A DNA stretch of 64,000 bases from a candidate division WOR-3 bacterium (GTDB lineage Bacteria > Hydrothermota > Tepidihabitantia > SM23-42 > JAOAFX01): NCBI GenBank assembly GCA_037444665.1, contig JBBILZ010000006.1, positions 56-64,055 of the forward strand, in the 5' to 3' direction. Made by a program: the position numbers and the translations under genes. Below, piece after piece: positions 4,783 to 37,661 of the stretch; the stretch's first letter is position 1; the number at the start of each line of letters is the position of its first letter. The notes under the pieces were generated by a model, which was given only the letters and a program-made list of their open reading frames with translations, made no database searches and was not told the DNA's origin.

Positions 4783-5391
4783 TTAAAACTCATACCATAA
4801 ACCAATTGAAAGATTAAAATCATAAATTGATATAGAAGCACCTACATCAGTAAGCACGGGATGGTTAGTTAGGTTATAATTAAAGGAAAACTCAGGTGAA
4901 ATCCTTAGTTTTGCCATCTTATTTTCCATACCAATACTTGCCGTAAAGTATAAATCGTTTCTGAGTTGTTCAATTGGCCGCTCTGTACCCAATTCTGTAT
5001 CTACTGCTTTACCATATATTTGAAAATTACTACCAATACCAATGCCCAGATAAGGCTTATTGGAAAGTTTTGCAAAGGGTTTAAATGTGGCTGTTATAGG
5101 TATGAACACATTTGTGTAATAACGATTTGTGCCCGGCCAATATTTTCTGATGTATGAACTTGTTTTAATTTGCGGCGTAAAATTGACTTCCCAACATGGA
5201 TTTAGATTAAAACCCATACCAATTCCACCATGCAAACCATTGCCCGAAACATCACTAAATGGTTTATCGTAATCTTCAATACACCAATTTCCTCCAACTT
5301 TTATACCAATATATGTAAGCAATGGCGCTGAAAAACAGAAAGGAAATACACCAATAAATTGAATTATGGTTAATAATATTAGCCTATTCAT
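4783..5391 (-). CDS. Small outer-membrane beta-barrel protein, paralog B
   Basis: Signal peptide, a C-terminus ...GLWYEF ending in an aromatic residue (typical of OMPs), and Gly/aromatic-rich beta strands. Confidence 0.5.
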   Translation of the reverse strand: MNRLILLTIIQFIGVFPFCFSAPLLTYIGIKVGGNWCIEDYDKPFSDVSGNGLHGGIGMGFNLNPCWEVNFTPQIKTSSYIRKYWPGTNRYYTNVFIPITATFKPFAKLSNKPYLGIGIGSNFQIYGKAVDTELGTERPIEQLRNDLYFTASIGMENKMAKLRISPEFSFNYNLTNHPVLTDVGASISIYDFNLSIGLWYEF

Positions 5392-5486
5392 TCTTGGTCC
5401 ACTCCCATCCCCTCTGCATCTAACTTAGCACTGGATTTGCAAGTCATCTTCATATCTCCTTAATTTAATCTACTACTCTATGCTAC

Positions 5487-5514
5487 ATTATACAAACAAT
5501 TTCTCCGCTGTCAA
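5487..5514 (-). promoter_or_regulatory. Sigma70-type promoter TTGACA-16-TATAAT for 4783-5391
   Basis: Minus-strand sequence reads TTGACAgcggagaaattgtttgTATAAT. The conserved upstream element lies at 5527-5575. Downstream, a 21-codon uORF (aaggagatATGaagATGact...) has its stop overlapping the main ATG (ATGA). Confidence 0.6.
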
Positions 5515-5598
5515 GGACAGGATAAAAAATTATGCGGTAAAATGTAAAATGTTAAGATCTGAGCCAAAGGCGTCCAAATTCCAATGTGAATGTGGGAT

Positions 5599-6903
5599 TT
5601 AAGCATCACCTCTATTCACTTCCTGTTCATTTTTATCTTGTTCGTGTTCTAATATTTGTGTCTTTTGGTCACTTTCCAACATTTTTATTTCAGCAATTGA
5701 TGCACCTGCTATACCTTTGATTGAACCATAAAAGTTTACTGCATTAATCAAGATCTTGTCGAGTTGTTTCTCTCGTTCCTTCCATATTTTCTGCATTTTT
5801 AGTTTTTCATCTTGGTAATTGTCTTGCAATGATTTAAAACCTTCAACAATCGCACCGAATTGACCTTTAAATTCTTGGCTTGTTAGATAATTGTAGAGCA
5901 TTTCCATTTTAATCTCTTTTCCATGCTGAGTAATCACAACTGAATGTATTTGTATCAATCCATGTCTAAGTGCAAGAGACAATCCTCTTATTTCAAAAAA
6001 CGAACAAATCCAAACACCATCTTTAAAGAAAAACTTATCTTCTTCTGCGGGCATTGTTTCTGTAACAAGCACCAAAAGATTGGCTTTTACTTCCAGATTG
6101 TCATCCCGCAATTTCTGCAGCCAGTTATAGTCAAAGCTTTTCGTTCGCTTGCTTTCATAATAAATCTTACCACATTCAGCACCGTCTTCATTTTTAACAA
6201 TCTGCAAAACATCGGCACCACGTTGTCCTTTCTTGATCTCCTTAATTTCATCATTAGGATATAACAACTTAAGCATGTTTTCGAGCGCTAATTCCTGAAT
6301 TTCGCCCTGAAGTTGCATAGATCCTTGCTCAGCCTTTCTTTTTGCTGCGCCAAGCTGCTCGGTTAGTTCTTCGATAATTTTGTCCTTTTCCTTGATTTTA
6401 AGGATATTTTCCTCATCAATTTGTTTTGCAATTTTTAACTTTTCGGCCTTTAGTTTCTCACTATATTCCTTTTCTTTCTCTAGAGCAATTTGGTCACGTA
6501 TTTCCTCCTTTTCTCTTTTTAATTTTTCTATTTCTGCCCTTGTCTTGTTTAACTCTTTTACTTGCTCTGATTTTTCCTCAAGTGCTTTTTGTAGTAGTGC
6601 AATTTGATCCGAGGTCTCGCCTTGAATCTCTTCTCGCAATGTCTTTTCTAATTTTAATTTCTCTGCTTTGATTTTGCTCTGAACTTCTGTATCAACAATT
6701 TCTTTGAGTGATTGTCTTTCTTTGTCTATTTTTTCTCTCTCTGTATTTATTTCTTGCAGTTTTAACTGCAGTTCTTTCTCTTTTCTCGCAATTTTTTTCT
6801 CAAAATCTTTTTTTATGTCGTTTTCAATTTGTCCATACAGAGCAGCATTAACATTTATTTCGGTGCCACATTTAGGGCATTTAATTATATTATCATTTTT
6901 CAT
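5599..6903 (-). CDS. Zn-ribbon / long coiled-coil / DUF2130-domain protein (PD-(D/E)xK-like C-terminal domain)
   Basis: N-terminal CPKCG zinc ribbon, about 200 aa of E/K-rich coiled coil, and a C-terminal ...GQRGADVLQIV...GKIYYESKRTKSF... that fits DUF2130 with a D...E-x-K nuclease-like motif. Confidence 0.55.
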   Translation of the reverse strand: MKNDNIIKCPKCGTEINVNAALYGQIENDIKKDFEKKIARKEKELQLKLQEINTEREKIDKERQSLKEIVDTEVQSKIKAEKLKLEKTLREEIQGETSDQIALLQKALEEKSEQVKELNKTRAEIEKLKREKEEIRDQIALEKEKEYSEKLKAEKLKIAKQIDEENILKIKEKDKIIEELTEQLGAAKRKAEQGSMQLQGEIQELALENMLKLLYPNDEIKEIKKGQRGADVLQIVKNEDGAECGKIYYESKRTKSFDYNWLQKLRDDNLEVKANLLVLVTETMPAEEDKFFFKDGVWICSFFEIRGLSLALRHGLIQIHSVVITQHGKEIKMEMLYNYLTSQEFKGQFGAIVEGFKSLQDNYQDEKLKMQKIWKEREKQLDKILINAVNFYGSIKGIAGASIAEIKMLESDQKTQILEHEQDKNEQEVNRGDA

Positions 6904-7020
6904 ATATTCCTCCTGTCACATTTTTCTAATCGGCGATTAAAATGTCATAATTTTAACCTGTAGCTATTATGTGCAATAAGAATTTTAGTAACTATAAGAA
7001 TTAAAATCGCTTTTAAAGTA

Positions 7021-7485
7021 TTATTCATTGTTGTTCATATTTCTTTTGAGGCGGTAATAACGGCGGGTGTAATAAGTCCAGGATTTTGCTGAATCCAATG
7101 ACAACTTATTGTTTACATTTTTTCTGAACATTAATAAACGTCTTATTGTCCTCTCTGAAACTTTTAAATCACGTGCAAAATGCTTGTTGGCATAATTTAA
7201 GAAAAAACCTGTTTTATCTGATATTGTTAGGAACTGCCATAGTTTATCTGCAATATCCCAATAAAGAAAAATTTTCTGTTGATTTGAAGTATTAGTAATT
7301 GCATTTAACTGCTGTTTGCAAAATTCAATAGTCTCCCTATAAAGGTTTTCAAGATGTTCTACTTTTGATGTCAATTCTGTATCGGCTCGTTTTTCTTTTA
7401 ACAGCTCGCTCATTTGAATCTTGGCAACATAAATTATTTCATTATTTTGCTTTCTTGGTTCAATTTCAAAAAATATCTTATCCAT
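7021..7485 (-). CDS. Hypothetical protein (154 aa), translationally coupled to the upstream GHKL ATPase gene
   Basis: Its start at 7485 abuts the GHKL stop at 7486. The segment ...VSERTIRRLL... could be an HTH. No confident family assignment. Confidence 0.4.
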   Translation of the reverse strand: MDKIFFEIEPRKQNNEIIYVAKIQMSELLKEKRADTELTSKVEHLENLYRETIEFCKQQLNAITNTSNQQKIFLYWDIADKLWQFLTISDKTGFFLNYANKHFARDLKVSERTIRRLLMFRKNVNNKLSLDSAKSWTYYTRRYYRLKRNMNNNE

Positions 7486-8997
7486 TTATTTAAGATTACC
7501 CCAATTAGTTAAATATTTATTCAAAATCAGCATCTTATCTTGGTCTTGCGGTAATTCCTTGATAAGAGCAAAACCGATAGCTAAGACATAATGATATGTG
7601 ATCTGCCCAGTTTTTTCGGCAGACTTAAATGCAGGATGTGCCTTGTTGATAAAGACTTTTTCTATTCCTTCAGTCCAACTAATATCTTCTCGTGTTTCAT
7701 CGCTAAGAAAACTTATTGTTGGGCCAAATTTAATGGATCTCGGTCTTTTAGTTATTGGTTGATCAGTGCCGGGTTGTATCAGTGTGTCACCAAAATCTGG
7801 AACTACTGTGGTTCCTGAACCAGAGGCAGTGCCACCGGATTCTTCGCTAACTGGCATTTCTTGCGTCTGACCCTCTACCAATTTAGCAGTATCCTCGCTT
7901 TCTTTAGCTGTTAATAACACATCTTTGACTTGTCTTGCACTATACAATATATGAAGCTCCGGAATATCCGCTATGATTTTACTTACAAGTTTGGTTAAAC
8001 TATTAGTAAGATCTGCATCTTTCTCTTCCTCCACTTTAATTTCTCTTTGACCTATTTCTTCAAGCCATTTGATGAAGTTTTGCTGCGCAATTCTGCTGAA
8101 ACTGTAATATTTTTGTCCACAATAACCATCCTTGCGAAAAGCCGTCTTTGAAGTTACCAAGCAGTCAACGAGTTCGGGAACCTCAATAATACCGGAGATT
8201 TTTTCTGGGTTTTTTGGCTGTTGCTTAAACAATTCTTTTTGCTCGGTATTGATAATCTTCCCAAAGCATGATATTCCGATGCCCTGAAATTCTTCTGCGA
8301 TTGGCTCTTTACACAAAGAAAACTTGCATATTCCAAAAGGTTTCTTTTTTCTTCCCCTTGTTAGGAAAATCCGAGGTGATTCTTTTTCCGTATCAATCGT
8401 GGGCAATTTTATGACATCACCATTTAAAACAAAAGTAACACCAGCCGGGTAAACTTTGGCAAGTTTATAAAAATCCTCAAATAAAAATAGAGGCTGATAG
8501 TGCTTTAACATTATAGATTCAATCTTTTTATCGTCTAAAAGCAAAGATTCTCGGGACTTTAAATATATTCTTACTAATGTTCCTTGTGTATCAATCAAAG
8601 ATGGTTTAATATCTTCCCATTCCGGTTCTTTGCCAACAAATTCCCAATTAGATGTAAATTTGTATTTACCAGTGCAAGTCTCAGTGACAATTTTTTCAGC
8701 AATTCTTAGTGCCAATTTGGCACCCAACCCCGCAAAACCAATTCCTTTGCCTTTTTCTTTGAAGGTCATTGAAAAATTGTGGTAATTTTCAAATTCTTTT
8801 TCATTCATTCCCTTTCCGTTATCTTGTATTTCGAAAACCTTGGACTCTTTATTAGTATTTATTTTAATAACACTTGCCTTTGCATCTAAAGAATTAGCGA
8901 TTGTTTCTACCAAAACTGCTTCTTCAACTGAAAATGGGTACATACCTGCAAGGTCTTCTAAAAAGTGTTGATAATCAGTTGTGCTTTTATGCCTCAT
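7486..8997 (-). CDS. GHKL-superfamily ATPase (HATPase_c_3 / prokaryotic MORC-like)
   Basis: Bergerat-fold motifs are present: E..ANSLDA (N-box), DNGKGM (G1) and GIGFAGLGAK (G2). It lies 2 nt downstream of the Type IIG RM gene on the same strand. Confidence 0.65.
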   Translation of the reverse strand: MRHKSTTDYQHFLEDLAGMYPFSVEEAVLVETIANSLDAKASVIKINTNKESKVFEIQDNGKGMNEKEFENYHNFSMTFKEKGKGIGFAGLGAKLALRIAEKIVTETCTGKYKFTSNWEFVGKEPEWEDIKPSLIDTQGTLVRIYLKSRESLLLDDKKIESIMLKHYQPLFLFEDFYKLAKVYPAGVTFVLNGDVIKLPTIDTEKESPRIFLTRGRKKKPFGICKFSLCKEPIAEEFQGIGISCFGKIINTEQKELFKQQPKNPEKISGIIEVPELVDCLVTSKTAFRKDGYCGQKYYSFSRIAQQNFIKWLEEIGQREIKVEEEKDADLTNSLTKLVSKIIADIPELHILYSARQVKDVLLTAKESEDTAKLVEGQTQEMPVSEESGGTASGSGTTVVPDFGDTLIQPGTDQPITKRPRSIKFGPTISFLSDETREDISWTEGIEKVFINKAHPAFKSAEKTGQITYHYVLAIGFALIKELPQDQDKMLILNKYLTNWGNLK

Positions 8998-8998
8998 C

Positions 8999-11900
8999 TT
9001 ATTCCTCCGTTTTCATTACTTCCTGCCACAGAAGGTGTAGTACTTCACGCTGGGTTTTAGGACTCAAGATAGATAGAACCTCCTCTTCAATGACCTTGTC
9101 AATTTTTTCTCTTAATGCAGATAACTCAGGCAATATTTTTTTAAGATATTTTTCGTCATTGGGAATTTTTATAGTATCTAACCCCATTCCAATAAAATTT
9201 TTGAGATATTCGGCTTCAATTTCAGTTTCACATTCAATAAAAGCATTAGTCCCCCTAAGACGCCACTTAAATAGGTCTTTTTCAATTTTAATTTTTCCTT
9301 CAATTTCGGGTAAAGTTTTTTCATAGCAAGGTTTTGTTAAAATCTTTTCCCTATAGAATCTGCCCAAAGTATTATCGCCAAGTTGTGAGACAAGATTTTT
9401 TACTAACAATTCAATATCTATCCCTTCTTTGCTCTTTTTCTTCTTACCTTTGTCTTTTGCCTTTTTAATACGTGAATTAACTAAATCCACCACTGCCCGA
9501 TAAATCTCAAGTTGTTCTTCATCGGTAAGCCCGAGTATCTCACCCATAATAATTTTATCCAATTCCCTGCGGTCTGGTTTGATTTTGTCTAGTGTTACAT
9601 CTTTAGATTGAGTACTCCCCAGTTCATCAAAAACAGTCCCAAAATCTCTGCTTTTAAATGTTTCAAACATTGCGAGTAGAGTTTTTTTAGTGTTTTCCAA
9701 AATCTTGCGAGGATTTAATACGGGGAGTTTTTCAACTTCATAAACCATGAATCCAGTGGGAGCACCACCTCCTCCATAACTTCTGCCTAAAATATCTGGA
9801 TACAGAAATGCTATAGTTGAGTTAAAATATAACACAATTATCTTATTTATATCATCTACACTACTTTCGCATTCATACAATGTATGATCAACAAAACAAT
9901 TAAACAAATTCAGATGATATTTATAACTCTGTTGAAAGTACATTGTGAAAAGTACCTTGTAAGGATACCATTCTCCCAAATCATACCATCTGTTTCTACT
10001 CGCACAAGTTGGTCTTTTATGATAGCCTTTTCGTTCGCCCCACTGAATATATTTTAAGACATTTGTGCCTTTTAAATCTTTTTTATCTTTATGAATCATC
10101 AGGACTCGGTATTTTAAGTCTTCTGGTTTAACTATGATTGTTTTACATTCCCGGGGGCTTTTAATCACATAATTGGGAACCCAGTTGCCTTTATCGTCCT
10201 TATGCATCCAGAACTCTTTTTCAATTTTCTACTTTTTGATTTCTTCTTCGGTCAGATAGAAAAACTCATTGGCACCGGTTTTGATACCGAATCTCACTTC
10301 TGCAAGTTCCTTTAATGGCAAAAGTTTGTCTTTGCCCTTCTCTAAAATCTTAAAGAAAATCTGCGGCGCCCTTATATATTTGCCCCATTTTGAACCAACA
10401 TATTTCTGTTCTTCTGGGTCAAAGCCTTCGTCCCAGAGTTCTTTTTGTTTTTTGGGAATATTCTCAAATCTTCATTCTCATAAAGCTCATTATGGAAAAG
10501 TATGGTCTTTATTAATTCATCTATTTTGTTAAATCGTTCTTTCTCTTTTGCCCAATTATTAACCAGGGGGGGTATAAAATCCGATAGTTTCTTTTTTAAA
10601 TAAACAAACCTTACTAAATTTTCATCACGTTCCTGTGCATTTTTACATTTCTGAAGAATAACAATGCAGGTGTTAATATCTGCATCCTCAAACCAGCGCT
10701 CAACTTTGGATTCAATGATTGTAACTATCTTATAGTTTTTCAGAAAAAATTCTTGAAGACCCTTACCATAATCCACATCAAGCCAGGAATTGGATACGAT
10801 AAAACCAAAATACCCAGTATCTTTCAAAAATTTTGTGCCGTGGATAAAAAAGTAGGTATGAATACCCGCCCGTTTTGAAATATCGGCAAGTTTTTGATTA
10901 TTTAAAAAAAGCGCCTTTTTTATAAGACTGCCTTTCTCTACGCCAGTCTCTGGAATCTCTTCTTGTCGGGTATAAGGAGGATTACCAACAATGCAATCAA
11001 ACCATCGTGGATAAGTTACTTCTTTACCCATCTTACCGAGGGCTACCGTAACCACCTTACGCCATTTTTCGGGTAGTTCTAAACCCTCGGGTGAAGATAA
11101 TAGGTTAAAGAAGTCATCATGGACAATCATCGGATAATTCTTGTCCACAGATAAATCTCTAATAGCCAGATTTATTGTTGATAGGTGGGCTGGGAATTTA
11201 GCGATATCAACACCCCATAAATCCTTTAAGATTTCCTCATGTTGAAGCATTGAATTCATCAATTTCTTATGTTGATATGCCCTGACTAAAAAAGTTCCTG
11301 CGCCGCAAGCAGGGTCAAGAACTTTGTCCTTTTCATGATGCATACAGAACCTTAAAATAATGTCGACGATATTGGTGTTTGTAAAGTATTGACCCAGATT
11401 ATGACGTTCTTCAGCCGGAATTAACTGTTCAAAAATATAACCGATTATGTCATAAGTTAGATTGGAAAAATTGTAGCGCCTTAATATTTTCACCAAATTT
11501 TTTATTTCTGTTACGACTGCTGCATTATCAGGGAAAGCTAACTCATCAATAAAATCACTTGAATATACGGTCTCGTAGTCTATTTCTAGGACATCATTAA
11601 AATAGTTTTGCAAATGATTCTTAAGTAATCCACCTTTGGTTAAATCATCTGGAATATTTAATGGATCAAGTTTACGCTGTCTTTTAGCCTGAAGTGCATT
11701 ATAAAAGACAATTTTATTAACCAGAAGATAGGCGGTTTGCCGTGCAGCTTTAACAAAGTCTATATCTTGACCATTAAATTCCCATAATTGTTCATTGAAC
11801 CAATTTTTCAATTGCTGGCGAAATTCTTTATTCTTGTGATATTCATCTTCAATGATGACTTTGTAATATCGTGCAAGACGATTGACCTTTTCTTGCAAAC

Positions 11901-12480
11901 GCCAAACCAATAATTGATTTATTTCAATTAAAGGCTCAGATTTTTCCCCGGTGACAAACTGCGCAATATCTAAAATTAATTTCTCCAACCCTGCGTAGAT
12001 GCTGTTACGAAATTTTGGAAGTTCAATTTCATTCAGATCGGCAATCTGAGAAAGTTCATATCTGCCGACCAATTGCTCTTCAATAGGCTTCATCTCATTT
12101 ACTTTAATAGTGTTGAACAAAAAAAGGGACTGGAAATTAGATATCGCAAAATAACGGGCTTTTCTTCGGGCGGCTTTTTTGCGTGCAGGTTCTTTTAAAT
12201 TCTCCTCGTCGTCAGGTTCGTAAAAAGGTGCCTTGAATTCCAAAAGGCAAATAATTTCTTCATCTACCCTGCCTTTATATAATACAACATCGGGACGGGC
12301 GCGGTCACCAGGATGTTTTGTTTCAACTTCAGCAATACCAAGGGGAATATTCTTCTCTTTTATAATTTCATTAATCCATTCCATTATTTTGGCGGTTGCA
12401 GTCCATTCGGTTTTAATGACAAAATCTTCTATGGGACTCGGTGTTCGCTGGGTGCTTTTCAGAAGTTTACTTTTTTTCAT
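8999..12480 (-). pseudogene. MmeI-like Type IIG restriction-modification enzyme (PD-ExK nuclease + gamma-class N6-adenine MTase + TRD), disrupted
   Basis: The N-terminus has RPDVVLY...LLEFKAP (PD-ExK). MTase motif I is DPACGAGTFL and motif IV is GNPPY. After a -1 shift in the A/T homopolymer around 10440-10456, the reading continues as ...ELWDEGFDPEEQKYVGSKWGKYIRAPQ...VRFGIKTGANEFFYLTEEEIKK. An in-frame TAG follows at 10229-10231. The 402-aa downstream ORF (8999-10207) is in the same frame and has a TRD-like sequence. Confidence 0.6.
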
Positions 12481-12820
12481 CTTCCTTTTCTTTTAAGACC
12501 TCTTGAACTATACGGCGGGCGATTTCAAAGGTGGCGGCAATCCTGATAATTTTTACATCACCTAACCCTTTTATTTCAAGAAATTTTTTGAGCGGCTGAC
12601 CGAACATACCACGAAAAGAACCAAATTTTTCTAAAATCTCCTTCGCAATCGTTTCAGCAGATTTACCTTTTATTCCAGAACCAATGATGATTGATAATAA
12701 TTCGGCTTCGGTTAAATGCCCTGCTCCTAAGTCGCGCAATTTACCCCCTGGATGTGTCCAATAGGGGAATTTTGAATCGCGCAAAAGATTAGCTACTATT
12801 TTAGATTTTTTAGATGGCAA
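12467..12820 (-). CDS. radC: RadC-like protein, N-terminal HhH domain only (truncated; the JAB/MPN domain is missing)
   Basis: LTEAELLSIIIGSGIKGKSAETIAKEILEKFGSFRGMF...IKGLGDVKIIRIAATFEIARR matches the RadC N-terminal helix-hairpin-helix region. The ORF ends where the JAB domain should begin, and it overlaps the RM gene start. Confidence 0.6.
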   Translation of the reverse strand: MPSKKSKIVANLLRDSKFPYWTHPGGKLRDLGAGHLTEAELLSIIIGSGIKGKSAETIAKEILEKFGSFRGMFGQPLKKFLEIKGLGDVKIIRIAATFEIARRIVQEVLKEKEDEKK

Positions 12821-12929
12821 AGTATACCTCCACAGTTCTCCATTGATTGCCTCTATTATGCACCAAAAACATCAAAAAGTCAAGGATTTTTTGTGGTATA
12901 TGGGGGTGGGCTTTTGATGGTGTAAAGTA

Positions 12930-13230
12930 GGCGACATTTTTGGTGAGATGCTGAGTGGTTGCGTGAATAGGATAAGTGGAGTAAGTAGTAGGCAGTAGGT
13001 AGTATGTAGTAGGTAGCTCCGCCTTGAAAAGGCGAGAGTTCGCGTCCGAAGGACGGAATAAGTAGTAAGTAGTAAATATCCAGTATCGATTATCAGTTAT
13101 CGAGTATCAAGAAAGCATCAACGCCCAATATAATTAAAATACCTAAAAGTCCAAAATGCCTAAATGCCTAAAAGTTAAAATGCCTAAAAGCCCTAAACCT
13201 GTCCTGAACTCGGTTCAGGATACCTAAAAA
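12930..13230. repeat. GTAG-rich microsatellite-like tract with several short hairpins and ATGCCTAAA(A)G tandem repeats
   Basis: agtaaGTAGtagGcaGTAGGTAGtatGTAGtagGTAG. Hairpins: ccgccttgaaaaggcg, cgtccgaaggacg and cctgaactcggttcagg. atgcctaaa occurs 3 times. Non-coding. Confidence 0.5.
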
Positions 13231-13238
13231 TTTAATCT

Positions 13239-13342
13239 ATGCCCGATGAATCGGGCAACTACAATTGGGAAAATAATCTTACCTACTGATGTTTTATCTT
13301 AGCAGAGTAAACTCTGCCACTACATTGTCGCATTACTACAAT
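13239..13342. repeat. REP-like element cluster (inverted orientation relative to 2909-3028), right flank of the island
   Basis: The RC of 13239-13269 is cccaattgtagttgcccgattcatcgggcat (1 mismatch to 2909-2939). The RC of 13302-13326 is aatgtagtggcagagtttactctgc (matches 3003-3028). The RC of 13331-13341 is ttgtagtaatg. Confidence 0.6.
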
Positions 13343-13393
13343 AATTCAATTAGTTAATTGACTATCGTTACGCAGTCCATTTAGGGATGGTTA

Positions 13394-13426
13394 TTGACTT
13401 TGTGAATTTATTGCATAGAATTCTCT
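13394..13426 (+). promoter_or_regulatory. Promoter TTGACT-16-TAGAAT, 5 nt from the recR ATG (leaderless configuration)
   Basis: TTGACTttgtgaatttattgcaTAGAATtctctATG. Confidence 0.5.
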
Positions 13427-14014
13427 ATGCCCCTTTTAAATGACCTGATTGAAAAACTTCAGTGGTTACCAGGTATTGGTAGAAAAACAGCACAACGACT
13501 CGCCTTTTTTCTTCAGAAAATGGAAGTATCCCAGGTAAAAGAACTCACTGATGCCATCTTAAAGGCAAGATTGGAATTAAAAGAATGCTCAATCTGCCAC
13601 AACCTTGGCGAAACAAATCCCTGTGAAATCTGTGGTTCATCCAACCGAAATAAGGAACAGATATGTGTAGTGGAACAACCCGCAGATGTGATGGTGATAG
13701 AAAAGATTGGTGAGTACAAGGGTCTATACCATATCTTGCACGGCGCCATATCACCGATTGACAATGTCGGTCCTGAAGATTTACGCATCAATAGTTTAAT
13801 AGAAAGGGTAAAAACACAAAATATTAGTGAGGTCATTATCGCTACGAACCCGACAACCGAAGGTGATGTTACTGCATTGTATATTGCTAAATTACTAAAG
13901 CCACTAAATATTAAGGTGACGAGGATTGCCCGTGGACTGCCTATGGGCAGTGACCTCGGACTGGCTGATGGTGTAACGATTTTAAGGTCATTTGAAGGAA
14001 GGCGGGAATTATAA
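13427..14014 (+). CDS. recR: Recombination protein RecR
   Basis: HhH N-terminus, C4 zinc finger (CSICHNLGETNPCEIC) and a Toprim domain. Strong family match. Confidence 0.9.
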   Translation: MPLLNDLIEKLQWLPGIGRKTAQRLAFFLQKMEVSQVKELTDAILKARLELKECSICHNLGETNPCEICGSSNRNKEQICVVEQPADVMVIEKIGEYKGLYHILHGAISPIDNVGPEDLRINSLIERVKTQNISEVIIATNPTTEGDVTALYIAKLLKPLNIKVTRIARGLPMGSDLGLADGVTILRSFEGRREL

Positions 14015-14081
14015 TGATAAACAGATTGTTATTGACTTCAGTCTAAATTTAAGTATAATTAAAGGTTAAAGGAGTAAAATA

Positions 14082-14396
14082 ATGGAATTTCTATATGGAC
14101 AGACATCGGGTCAATCCCAGAGCAATCCGCTTTTCAGTCTTTTGCCATTAATTCTTATTTTTGTTGTTTTTTATTTTCTGCTCATCCTTCCCCAACAAAA
14201 GAAACAGAAACAACACCAGCAATTGCTCAATTCCCTGAAAAAAGGTGACCGTGTCATCACCTCTTCAGGCATATACGGCACAATTGCCAATTTAAAGGAG
14301 AACATTGTTAGTCTGGTAATTGCTGATGGTGTAAAGGTTGACATTGAAAGAAGCCATATTCTTTCAAAGGTTGGCTCTGTAGAGGAAGGCAAGTAA
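14082..14396 (+). CDS. yajC: Preprotein translocase subunit YajC
   Basis: Single TM segment, then LPQQKK...LKKGDRVITSSGIYGTI...GVKV, which is the YajC consensus. Promoter TTGACT-16-TATAAT at 14032-14059 and RBS AAAGGAG. Confidence 0.85.
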   Translation: MEFLYGQTSGQSQSNPLFSLLPLILIFVVFYFLLILPQQKKQKQHQQLLNSLKKGDRVITSSGIYGTIANLKENIVSLVIADGVKVDIERSHILSKVGSVEEGK

Positions 14397-36546: not shown

Positions 36547-37661
36547 ATGTTTAGAGTTCTCAAGAAAGACCAGAACACGATGGCACGTGTTGGTCTTTTG
36601 AAAACCAAATCTTTCTCTGTGACAACACCAAATTTTATGCCGGTTGCAACGCAGGGAACAGTAAAAACACTTTCACCATATGATTTAAAAAAGATTGGCG
36701 TAGAAATTATTGTGTGCAATACCTATCATCTGATGCAAAGGCCCGGAACTGCCCTGATAAAAAAGTTGGGAGGATTGCACAAATTTATTGGTTGGACAGG
36801 AGCAATTCTTACAGACTCAGGAGGGTTCCAGGCTTATTCTTTAAGTGAATTGAGAAAAGTAAATGATGATGCTTTAACATTCTCTTCGCATATAGATGGT
36901 TCTCGTATTACATTGAGCCCGGAAACAGCCATAGGAATACAAAGAGATTTAGGAACTGATATTGCAATGTGCCTTGATTTTTTTACACCCTATCCATCAG
37001 AATTTATTGAAGCAAGAATTGCCGTTGAAAGAACCGTAAAATGGGCAAAACAGAGTCTGAAGGTAAAAAAAAACCGCGTTTATTTGCGATTATACAGGGC
37101 GCGACATTCAAAGATTTACGCAGGGAATGTGCCCAGCGCCTTCTGGAATTAAAGTTCCCTGGTTATGGCATCGGTGGATTGATGATTGGTGAACCATCAA
37201 CCCTAACCATGGAAATGGTAAAAGAAACAAATCAGGTCATTCCTGAAAACAAGGTTCGCTATTTAATGGGATGTGGATATCCTGAAGATATTGTTGAGGC
37301 AGTAAGTCTTGGGGTTGACCTATTTGATTGTGTCTTACCCACCAGAAATGGTAGAACCGGTATGGCATTTACCTCAGAAGGAAAGATTATTATCAAGAGT
37401 AGCCGCTATGCCCAGGACAAAAGTCCTCTGGATAAGAACTGCCAATGTTATACCTGCCAGAATTTTTCCCGTGCTTATCTACGACATCTCTTTAATGCAG
37501 GCGAAGCGCTGGCTGGCAGACTGGTAAGCTATCACAATATCAAATTTTATATTGACCTTATGCACAAAATCCATTATTACATAAAAAGAGGCGAATACGA
37601 TAATTTTCTGCAAAAAACAAGGAAATTGTTTAACTTTCGTCAGGAAGGCAATAATGTTTAA
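36547..37661 (+). pseudogene. tgt: Queuine tRNA-ribosyltransferase (tgt), split by a 1-nt deficit in an A9 tract (37065-37073)
   Basis: ORF 36547-37152 carries DSGGFQ. ORF 37041-37661 continues ...KKKPRLFAIIQGATFKDLR...GYGIGGL with the Zn site (C..CYTC..H). The two frames join if the tract is A10. Confidence 0.8.

What the first reader, a model, noticed from the sequence alone, without database searches (positions are those of the whole stretch)
8999..12480. MmeI-like Type IIG RM gene inactivated by a homopolymer frameshift plus an in-frame amber codon
A single polypeptide is recognisable (PD-ExK nuclease, N6A MTase motifs I DPACGAGTFL and IV GNPPY, then GIKTGANEFF and a TRD). The reading frame needs a -1 correction in the T5/T6 run at 10442-10453 and then hits TAG at 10229-10231. 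The 402-aa TRD ORF continues in the same frame 9 codons later. This is either a decaying RM gene, a phase-variable (slippage-controlled) enzyme, or a fission into an MTase plus TRD arrangement.
Basis: partly seen in the sequence, partly recalled or inferred. Interest (0 to 1): 0.55.

Follow-up and report, generated by a model that had tools for sequence, protein, structure and literature searches.

The report
Recently broken fused restriction-methylase gene
This is a large single-protein restriction-modification gene (DNA-cutting, DNA-methylating and DNA-recognising parts in one chain) that a Trp-to-stop mutation switched off very recently; the extra frameshift is not reproduced in a second assembly, so it is an ordinary broken defence gene rather than a new kind of system.

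Summary
On the minus strand, 12480..8999 encodes one collinear ~1160-aa protein: an N-terminal PD..ExK nuclease, a gamma-class N6-adenine methyltransferase (DPACGAGTFL, NPPY) and an Eco57I-type C-terminal recognition domain. It is interrupted by a 1-nt deficit in an A6 run (10448-10453) and by TAG at 10229-10231.

More than 100 homologues (57-72% identical) are single ~1150-1166-aa proteins that run straight across both sites.

The two lesions differ in standing:
- **Frameshift:** a Logan contig of run SRR11582170 is identical to the window over 3503 bp except that it has A7. This restores the frame.
- **TAG:** that contig carries the same TAG. A 95%-identical sister strain has TGG (Trp) there, so the amber codon is a TGG>TAG mutation. 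The sister strain has its own frameshift elsewhere in the gene (T8 versus T7, codon ~120).

TAG is a normal stop in this genome (9 of 60 long ORFs). After correction, dN/dS is 0.10 and almost all family-invariant residues are intact, so the damage is very recent.

No homologue starts a separate gene at the MHKDD methionine. One relative is split in the same linker, but with an inserted ORF.

"MmeI-like" is only loosely right: the architecture is Type IIG, but it is not an MmeI-family member by sequence. Verdict: an ordinary, recently inactivated RM gene.

The parts
12467..12820 (-). Small upstream ORF (117 aa as the longest ORF). It contains only the RadC N-terminal (UPF0758_N, helix-hairpin-helix) domain and overlaps the start of the RM gene by 14 nt. 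It is a conserved partner, not a truncated radC.
   Evidence: Pfam UPF0758_N 1.4e-16; NCBIfam RadC N-terminal part only. tblastn finds it upstream of the RM gene in 74 of 80 genome loci, directly abutting in most, and in L002, L004, L007 and L009.
10372..12480 (-). N-terminal ORF as assembled (702 aa): PD..ExK nuclease, helical region and N6-adenine methyltransferase catalytic domain. The last 25 residues (NKKNSGTKALTQKNRNMLVQNGANI) are out-of-frame read-through.
   Evidence: Pfam N6_Mtase 3.6e-23 and Eco57I 8.8e-22. Identical to database protein P0025, from an NCBI contig of 64067 bp.
12232..12291 (-). Nuclease catalytic motif: D64 (12291..12289), E81 (12240..12238), K83 (12234..12232).
   Evidence: D64, E81 and K83 are invariant in 26- and 38-sequence alignments. 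In the AF2 model of homologue P0001 they sit on adjacent strands 64-68 and 76-82 of a confidently modelled domain. The PADLOC Type IIG model alignment begins at residue 61.
11287..11316 (-). Methyltransferase motif I, DPACGAGTFL (AdoMet binding).
   Evidence: Read directly from the sequence; D389, P390, C392, G393, G395, T396, F397 and L398 are invariant.
10972..10983 (-). Methyltransferase motif IV, NPPY (catalytic). Motif I precedes motif IV, which is the gamma-class order.
   Evidence: Read directly from the sequence; G499, N500, P501, P502 and Y503 are invariant.
10448..10453 (.). Homopolymer: A6 on the coding (minus) strand, T6 on the plus strand. It is one A short of the in-frame length. 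This is the only difference from the Logan contig L001, which has A7.
   Evidence: blastn of L001 against the window: 3503 bp, 0 mismatches, 1 gap at this run. With A7 the ORF is 750 aa (P0009). The sister strain reads TTT CCT AAA AAT CAA AAA in frame.
10232..10447 (-). Segment readable only after the frame correction (residues ~678-750: ...QKELWDEGFD...WGKYIRAP...GIKTGANEFFYLTEEEIKK). GIKTGANEFF lies at 10288..10259, at the start of the Eco57I-type C-terminal/recognition domain.
   Evidence: Pfam M_Eco57I_C covers residues 723-925. Collinear with homologues.
10229..10231 (-). In-frame amber codon (TAG) at codon 751, derived from TGG (Trp).
   Evidence: Present in the window and in Logan contig L001. 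Sister strain L007 has TGG/Trp. The family column reads R10/W7/K5. TAG ends 9 of 60 long ORFs in the window.
8999..10207 (-). C-terminal ORF (402 aa, MHKDD...): the rest of the recognition domain plus the conserved C-terminal region. It starts at a Met that is ancestral and internal in full-length homologues.
   Evidence: Met759 is present in 24 of 26 homologues. Phmmer hits are mainly residues ~740-1160 of ~1100-1260-aa proteins or contig-edge fragments. No core Shine-Dalgarno sequence lies upstream.
12119..12125 (.). T7 run on the coding strand (A7 on plus), in frame here. The sister strain has T8 at this site, which frameshifts its copy at codon ~120.
7486..8997 (-). Downstream gene, GHKL-type ATPase (503 aa). 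It starts 1 nt after the RM stop codon and is intact.
   Evidence: Pfam HATPase_c_3 1.1e-14. Orthologues occupy the same position in L002, L007 and L010 only.
7021..7485 (-). 154-aa ORF of unknown family that follows the GHKL ATPase and is co-conserved with it.
   Evidence: no NCBIfam hit.

Best explanation
The locus is a chromosomal copy of a widespread, uncharacterised ~1160-aa single-chain restriction-modification enzyme with Type IIG architecture. From N to C terminus it has a PD..ExK endonuclease, a helical spacer, a gamma-class N6-adenine methyltransferase, an Eco57I-type recognition domain and a conserved C-terminal domain. It is co-transcribed with a small helix-hairpin-helix partner gene and, in this sub-clade, with a GHKL ATPase.

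In this strain a G>A transition changed Trp751 (TGG) to amber (TAG), in the variable linker just after the GANEFFY motif. This cuts the recognition domain off the nuclease-methylase. By inference, the 750-aa product can no longer find its DNA target, so restriction and methylation are lost together, which is safe for the host.

The additional 1-nt deficit in the A-run is either an assembly error or a secondary variant in part of the population. The event is very recent, because the rest of the gene still looks fully constrained.

**Shown:** the architecture, collinearity, TGG>TAG, the A6/A7 discrepancy and the lack of decay. **Inferred:** loss of activity, and the enzyme's mode of action.
For: - **Architecture:** Pfam, PADLOC and the fold search give Type IIG hits, with BpuSI (6e-11) and DrdV (1e-10) the best folds. 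D64, E81, K83, motif I and NPPY are invariant.
- **Ancestral single ORF:** more than 100 homologues of 1150-1166 aa cover 100% of the query. In 80 genome loci none is split at residue ~751.
- **TAG is real and derived:** it is present in the window and in Logan contig L001. The sister strain L007 (94.8% nt identity, syntenic) has TGG.
- **TAG is a normal stop:** it ends 9 of 60 ORFs, and there is no tRNA gene in the window.
- **Frameshift not fixed:** L001 has A7 and a 750-aa ORF.
- **Recent event:** dN/dS against L007 is 0.10 (N-terminal part 0.08, C-terminal part 0.14). At 425 invariant or near-invariant family columns the window has one private, conservative change, V721L.
- **Broken copies are common:** L007 (T8 frameshift), L049 (frameshift) and L051, L060, L082 and L068 (in-frame stops).
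Against: - With no accumulated decay, a state that is still functional cannot be excluded.
- An ATG (the conserved Met759) lies 21 nt after the TAG, so the C-terminal part could be made by re-initiation. About half the genes here lack a Shine-Dalgarno sequence anyway.
- One relative (L009) is split in this same linker in a tidy operon.
- Both assemblies that carry the TAG probably derive from the same sample, so they do not independently confirm the population consensus.
- No reads or methylome data were available.
Confidence: 0.7

Rival explanations
1. Functional fission. After termination at TAG, ribosomes re-initiate at the ATG 21 nt downstream. The 750-aa nuclease-methylase and the 402-aa recognition/C-terminal piece then assemble into an active two-subunit enzyme, like RM enzymes that have a separate specificity subunit.
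For: - ATG/Met759 is in place and conserved.
- The break lies in a linker that varies in length across the family and has pLDDT below 50 in the AF2 model.
- L009 encodes 761-aa and 433-aa pieces split in the same linker, with coupled start and stop codons.
- The family naturally tolerates another split at residue ~1036 in about 17 of 80 loci.
- The C-terminal part shows no decay.
Against: - None of the 80 genome loci, nor the 120 listed homologues, has a gene boundary at this methionine.
- ~400-aa database hits are contig-edge fragments (they begin with V, or at contig base 7) or the L009 case, which carries an inserted 203-aa ORF and its own N-terminal extension.
- The 95%-identical sister strain has Trp here, so the split is a fresh point mutation and not an evolved arrangement.
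- No core Shine-Dalgarno sequence precedes the ATG; the anti-SD duplex is -2.6 kcal/mol.
Confidence: 0.12
2. Phase variation. Slippage at short A/T homopolymers inside the gene (A6/A7 at 10448-10453, T7/T8 at 12119-12125) switches the enzyme on and off in the population.
For: - Two assemblies that are otherwise identical over 9.3 kb differ only at the A-run.
- Apart from that same A-run site, the only coding indel between the window and the sister strain in 7.4 kb is a homopolymer length change in this same gene.
- Homopolymer-driven on/off switching of Type IIG genes is documented in Helicobacter pylori (PMC3936762).
Against: - The tracts are only 6-8 nt of A/T, shorter than classical hypermutable tracts.
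- The window holds 77 runs of comparable length (76 A/T runs of 7 nt or more, plus one G7), so the gene is not specially enriched.
- The A7 tract is not conserved; the sister strain has CCTAAAAATC.
- The TAG keeps the gene off whatever the tract length.
- tgt, a housekeeping gene, is also frameshifted at an A9 run, which suggests general homopolymer indels or errors rather than a dedicated switch.
Confidence: 0.12
3. Pure artefact. Both lesions are sequencing or assembly errors, and the real gene is one intact 1160-codon ORF.
For: - The frameshift disappears in the Logan assembly.
- The assembly has at least one other homopolymer frameshift, in tgt.
- The gene is otherwise pristine.
Against: - The TAG is a substitution, not a homopolymer indel, and is identical in two differently built assemblies.
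- The tgt frameshift is also reproduced in the Logan contig, so the assemblies are not generally error-prone where they agree.
Confidence: 0.05
4. Recoding. TAG is read through (suppressor tRNA, pyrrolysine or an altered genetic code), so a full-length protein is made.
For: Only the absence of decay downstream of the TAG.
Against: - TAG terminates 9 of 60 long ORFs in the window, including housekeeping genes.
- No tRNA is encoded in the window.
- No other gene shows an in-frame TAG.
- Relatives have ordinary sense codons at this position.
Confidence: 0.01

Closest known systems
Type IIG restriction-modification enzymes with solved structures (BpuSI 3S1S; DrdV 7LO5)
   Same: One chain carries an N-terminal PD..ExK nuclease, a gamma-class N6A methyltransferase and a C-terminal recognition domain. 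These are the best Foldseek matches to the homologue model (E 6e-11 and 1e-10). A PADLOC REase_MTase_IIG model aligns over residues 61-961.
   Different: Sequence identity is only 13-14% and TM-scores are 0.2-0.3 on a low-confidence model (pLDDT 62.8). The protein has an extra ~230-aa conserved C-terminal region, including a ~120-aa domain that is a separate gene in about 17 of 80 relatives. It has a conserved small helix-hairpin-helix partner gene. No member has been characterised biochemically, as far as these searches show.
MmeI (Type IIL; PDB 5HR4)
   Same: Same domain order, with an N-terminal D...ExK nuclease. There is a weak Pfam MmeI_Mtase match (8e-10), and the profile hits 5hr4 at 7e-6 over the methyltransferase core.
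   Different: No match outside the methyltransferase core. N6_Mtase and Eco57I models score much better. The protein is 1160 aa against 919 aa for MmeI. The recognition domain is of the M_Eco57I_C type. MmeI is absent from the top 50 fold matches.
Frameshifted or phase-variable Type IIG genes of Helicobacter pylori (JHP1272, HP1353-HP1354; PMC3936762)
   Same: These are large fused RM genes that homopolymer frameshifts break into pieces in some strains and leave in frame in close relatives.
   Different: The H. pylori tracts are longer homopolymeric repeats (illustrated in the paper as a C9 run) with demonstrated switching. Here the tracts are A/T runs of 6-8 nt, and the lesion shared by both assemblies is a point nonsense mutation, not a repeat.
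MORC/paraMORC GHKL ATPases in RM operons (Iyer, Abhiman and Aravind 2008; PMC2292703)
   Same: A GHKL ATPase (HATPase_c_3) is encoded immediately downstream, in the same operon as a methylase/nuclease gene.
   Different: The described operons mostly include SF-II helicases. Here there is no helicase, and the ATPase is present only in a small sub-clade (4 loci: the window, L002, L007 and L010).

Membership tests
Type IIG (single-chain) restriction-modification enzymes | Endonuclease and methyltransferase domains in one polypeptide | tested here: met
   PD..ExK (D64/E81/K83, invariant) and the N6_Mtase/Eco57I domains lie in the same 702-aa ORF and in all full-length homologues. A PADLOC Type IIG model covers residues 61-961.
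Type IIG (single-chain) restriction-modification enzymes | Gamma-class N6-adenine methyltransferase motifs (motif I before motif IV, NPPY) | tested here: met
   DPACGAGTFL at residues 389-398 and NPPY at 500-503, both invariant.
Type IIG (single-chain) restriction-modification enzymes | Recognition domain in the same chain, C-terminal to the methyltransferase | tested here: inconclusive
   Met in the ancestral and reconstructed protein and in more than 100 homologues (M_Eco57I_C over residues 723-925). In the window itself the domain is cut off by TAG at codon 751.
Type IIG (single-chain) restriction-modification enzymes | Site-specific cleavage at a fixed distance from the site, plus methylation | not testable with these tools
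   Needs enzyme assays or a methylome.
MmeI family (Type IIL) | Sequence similarity to MmeI across the nuclease, helical, methyltransferase and recognition domains | tested here: not met
   Only the methyltransferase core matches (Pfam MmeI_Mtase 8e-10, below N6_Mtase and Eco57I; PDB 5hr4 7.4e-6 over residues 334-504). No other MmeI domain model was hit.
MmeI family (Type IIL) | N-terminal D-Xn-E-X-K nuclease motif | tested here: met
   D64-X16-E81-X-K83, invariant. That MmeI has this motif is recalled from memory, not tested here.
MmeI family (Type IIL) | Lone-strand methylation that suffices for host protection; cleavage about 20 nt away | not testable with these tools
   Needs a methylome and cleavage mapping.
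Phase-variable (simple-sequence-repeat controlled) RM genes | Hypermutable repeat tract inside the ORF | tested here: not met
   The tracts are A6/7 and T7/8. The window has 77 runs of comparable length (76 A/T runs of 7 nt or more, plus one G7). The A-run is not conserved in the sister strain.
Phase-variable (simple-sequence-repeat controlled) RM genes | Tract-length polymorphism within or between close populations | tested here: inconclusive
   A6 (window) against A7 (Logan contig); T7 (window) against T8 (L007). Without reads, error cannot be separated from heterogeneity.
Pseudogene (decaying gene) | Disrupted relative to intact orthologues | tested here: met
   TAG replaces TGG, plus a 1-nt deficit, measured against more than 100 intact homologues.
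Pseudogene (decaying gene) | Relaxed selection or accumulated damage | tested here: not met
   dN/dS is 0.10. There is one private conservative change at 425 conserved columns. The inactivation, if real, is therefore very recent.

The most novel reading that the evidence does not exclude
Three independent, very recent loss-of-frame or nonsense events have hit one otherwise strongly constrained RM gene in two sister strains: W751* and A7>A6 in this strain, and T7>T8 in the sister. These could reflect recurrent selection to switch this defence enzyme off. One possibility is population-level on/off heterogeneity using short A/T runs in an uncultured, AT-rich WOR-3-like lineage. Another is that the amber split yields a working two-subunit enzyme, as the L009 arrangement hints.
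Probability: 0.15. Interest if true: 0.45.

Novelty: new member of a known kind. Interest (0 to 1): 0.25.

Why it matters
**For annotation**
- The locus should be called one disrupted Type IIG-like RM gene, not an 'HsdM-like methylase' plus a hypothetical protein.
- The frameshift should not be trusted without reads.

**Biologically**
- It is one more case of a defence gene knocked out so recently that it still looks perfect. Such cases are common for RM systems.

**Of more general use**
- The analysis defines a large, highly conserved but uncharacterised enzyme family (57-72% identity across many phyla). It has a variable recognition segment, an almost universal small helix-hairpin-helix partner and a detachable C-terminal domain. 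This family would be a reasonable target for methylome-based or biochemical characterisation.

Tried and rejected
- **Altered genetic code or TAG read-through:** rejected. TAG ends 9 of 60 ORFs and no tRNA is encoded in the window.
- **The upstream 117-aa ORF as a radC remnant cut by insertion of the RM island:** rejected. The same short UPF0758_N-only ORF precedes the gene in 74 of 80 loci.
- **Naturally separate recognition-domain genes:** a phmmer search of 1.8 billion representatives with the 402-aa ORF gave mostly full-length proteins or fragments. The candidates P0130 and P0134 start with V, and P0155 starts at contig base 7. Only L009 is a real split.
- **Other alleles in JGI metagenomes:** two exact-pattern scans found nothing.
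- **Run metadata:** a paper search for SRR11582170 found nothing.
- **Structure prediction of the reconstructed window protein:** Homologue P0001 was modelled instead, but the junction region 676-843 had pLDDT below 50 and so says little about the linker.
- **Rfam scan of 5000-14100:** no hits.
- **Base composition:** the island's G+C (0.31-0.38) does not differ from the window's (0.365).
- **PADLOC on the GHKL ATPase:** no hit.
Full report
**1. What is in the sequence**

On the minus strand, ORF 12480..10372 encodes 702 aa. It contains:
- a PD..ExK motif (RPD64 ... E81-F-K83);
- methyltransferase motif I, DPACGAGTFL (residues 389-398);
- motif IV, NPPY (500-503).

Just after the run CCC-AAAAAA-C-AAAAA (A6 = 10453..10448) the homologous reading continues in another frame: KQKELWDEGFDPEEQKYVGSKWGKYIRAP...GIKTGANEFFYLTEEEIKK. 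That frame stops at TAG (10231..10229). It then continues for 7 codons (KIEKEFW) into the ATG of the 402-aa ORF 10207..8999.

Two details need adjusting: there are 7 intervening codons, not 9, and the repair needed is the insertion of one A.

**2. It is one ancestral protein**

The reconstructed 1160-aa sequence hits Pfam N6_Mtase (3.6e-23), Eco57I (8.8e-22), M_Eco57I_C (4.2e-10) and, more weakly, MmeI_Mtase (8e-10). The M_Eco57I_C match covers residues 723-925 and so spans the TAG. A PADLOC Type IIG REase-MTase model aligns from residue 61 to 961.

A search of 5.8 billion proteins returned more than 100 homologues of 1150-1166 aa. They are 57-72% identical and cover 100% of the query. They come from MAGs of many phyla: Chloroflexota, Planctomycetota, Nitrospirota, WOR-3, Desulfobacterota, candidate phyla radiation lineages and others.

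In the alignments:
- D64, E81, K83, motif I and NPPY are invariant.
- The sequence is collinear across both lesions.
- The column of the TAG is variable (R10, W7, K5).
- The methionine used by the 402-aa ORF is an internal, conserved residue, present in 24 of 26 sequences.

**3. The frameshift is not reproducible**

Database protein P0009 (750 aa, 100% identical) comes from a Logan assembly contig of run SRR11582170 (L001, 3503 bp). blastn against the window gives 0 mismatches and a single gap: A7 in place of A6. With A7 the ORF runs in frame to the same TAG.

A second Logan contig of that run (L006, 5835 bp) is 100% identical to the window. The two assemblies therefore differ at one base in 9.3 kb, and that base is the frameshift.

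I cannot tell whether A6 is an assembler error or a real minority or strain variant. Only reads can decide.

**4. The amber codon is a real TGG>TAG change**

The TAG is present in both assemblies.

A sister strain is available: Logan SRR12999147, contig L007, 7897 bp, 94.8% nt identity. It shows the same gene order: small ORF, RM gene, GHKL ATPase, 154-aa ORF, DUF2130. It has TGG (Trp) at this codon and reads TTT CCT AAA AAT CAA AAA, in frame, at the A-run.

TAG is an ordinary stop in this genome. It ends 9 of 60 long ORFs, and no tRNA gene is present in the window.

**5. The sister strain is broken elsewhere**

In L007 the gene is split into 125-aa and 1031-aa ORFs by T8 where the window has T7 (window 12119-12125, codon ~120).

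After one-base corrections the two genes are collinear over 1160 codons. They differ at 45 positions, one of which is the TAG/Trp codon itself. dS is 0.17 and dN/dS is 0.10, with 0.08 before the TAG and 0.14 after it.

At 217 invariant and 208 near-invariant family columns, the window protein departs at 12. Eleven of these are shared with L007 and nearly all are conservative. The single private change is V721L.

The gene was therefore under strong purifying selection until very recently, and nothing has decayed since.

**6. Is a split at this point natural?**

In 80 genome loci (GTDB species representatives) none has a gene boundary at residue ~751.

The 402-aa ORF searched against 1.8 billion representatives mostly matches residues ~740-1160 of long proteins, or contig-edge fragments.

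There is one exception. L009 (Logan SRR22387952) encodes:
- a 761-aa piece ending ...GANEFFYVEDVTDEIEE*;
- then an unrelated 203-aa ORF with a hydrophobic, possibly membrane-spanning N-terminal segment;
- then a 433-aa recognition/C-terminal piece with its own N-terminal extension.

In L009 the 203-aa ORF's stop codon overlaps the 433-aa piece's start (ATGA), and the 761-aa piece ends 4 nt before the 203-aa ORF's start, directly after a GAGGAG motif. The linker can therefore be a gene boundary, but not in the form seen in the window.

By contrast, a different split is clearly natural. In about 17 of 80 loci the last ~120 aa form a separate ORF that begins M-(K/R)-x-(I/L)-G-E-F-Y-R-E-K.

Sporadic damage also occurs in other members: L049 has a frameshift, and L051, L060, L082 and L068 have in-frame stops.

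**7. Could the C-terminal part still be made?**

The ATG lies 21 nt after the TAG, so termination-reinitiation is conceivable. Its upstream region has no core Shine-Dalgarno sequence (-2.6 kcal/mol against the anti-SD). However, 25 of 47 genes in the window also lack one.

The AF2 model of homologue P0001 is poor exactly in this region (pLDDT below 50 for residues 676-843; overall 62.8). It gives no structural argument either way.

**8. What family is it?**

- Sequence search of the PDB finds only methyltransferase cores: StySJI M, M.BseCI, DrdV (7e-7) and MmeI (7e-6, residues 334-504).
- Foldseek on the model gives the Type IIG enzymes BpuSI (6e-11) and DrdV (1e-10) as the best hits, with low TM-scores.
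- NCBIfam gives only sub-threshold hits to MAD2, Alw26I-type and PglX methylases.

The class, a single-chain Type IIG RM enzyme, is therefore supported. Membership of the MmeI family is not.

**9. Context**

The 117-aa ORF upstream (12820..12467) is not a broken radC. A UPF0758_N-only ORF that abuts or overlaps the start of the RM gene is found in 74 of 80 loci.

The GHKL ATPase (8997..7486) and the 154-aa ORF occur only in the window, L002, L007 and L010. GHKL ATPases in RM operons have been described computationally (PMC2292703).

The island has the same G+C content as the rest of the window. No Rfam family is present.

**10. Interpretation**

The best reading is a very recent knock-out by a nonsense mutation, with a frameshift that is an error or an unfixed secondary variant.

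The rivals that remain open are a functional two-piece enzyme and homopolymer-based on/off heterogeneity. Precedent for homopolymer switching of Type IIG genes exists in H. pylori (PMC3936762). Here, however, the tracts are short, the A-run is not conserved, and the TAG is dominant over any tract state.

Another gene, tgt, is frameshifted at an A9 run in both assemblies. This shows that homopolymer indels, real or technical, are not special to the RM gene.

**11. Verdict**

This is an ordinary finding, correctly spotted. The locus is a new, broken member of a known kind of system, belonging to a widespread family that has not been characterised.

Noticed in passing
window 36547-37661 (+), A9 run at 37065-37073: tgt (queuine tRNA-ribosyltransferase) is split into 201-aa and 206-aa overlapping ORFs by a frameshift at an A9 run; A10 would restore one 371-aa protein. 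The same broken N-fragment and identical DNA are in the Logan contig of SRR11582170. So it is either real (possibly rescued by transcriptional slippage at the A-run) or a systematic read artefact.
   Followed up: partly
window 12467-12820 (-); L002 7685-8014; L004 7709-8014; L007 407-790; L009 2819-3106: A stand-alone ~100-aa protein consisting only of the RadC N-terminal helix-hairpin-helix domain (UPF0758_N) is encoded upstream of this RM family, directly abutting in most loci and often overlapping its start by 14 nt. It occurs in 74 of 80 genome loci across many phyla. No described role was found; it may be a DNA-binding partner or a controller.
   Followed up: partly
loci L057, L071-L073, L075, L077, L083, L084, L088 and others (family residue ~1031-1039; window ~9370-9400): In about 17 of 80 relatives the last ~120 residues are a separate small ORF starting M-(K/R)-x-(I/L)-GEFYREK. 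In the window this domain is fused. This is a recurrent natural fusion/fission point of the family.
   Followed up: partly
L009 5393-6004: In one relative a 203-aa ORF with a hydrophobic, possibly membrane-spanning N-terminal segment and no Pfam match sits between the nuclease-methylase part and the recognition part of the gene, with coupled starts and stops. It looks like a gene inserted into the linker in which the window carries its TAG.
   Followed up: no
window 5599-8997 (-): A GHKL ATPase (503 aa, HATPase_c_3), a 154-aa ORF with no NCBIfam match (not scanned against other libraries) and a DUF2130 protein (434 aa) follow the RM gene in the same orientation and are syntenic in the sister strain. 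The ATPase and the 154-aa ORF accompany the RM gene only in a small sub-clade (window, L002, L007, L010). They may be an accessory defence module.
   Followed up: partly
L007 1100-1170 (equivalent to window 12119-12125): The sister strain's copy of the same RM gene has Trp at codon 751 but is frameshifted by T8 against T7 just after the nuclease domain. This is an independent lesion in the same gene.
   Followed up: yes
window 12821-13426: The intergenic region between the small ORF and recR holds short degenerate repeats: an 8-9-nt period AAAATGCCT-like array at 13136-13197 and GTAGTA-rich copies at 12978-13074. The sister strain lacks about 150 bp of it. There is no Rfam hit.
   Followed up: partly
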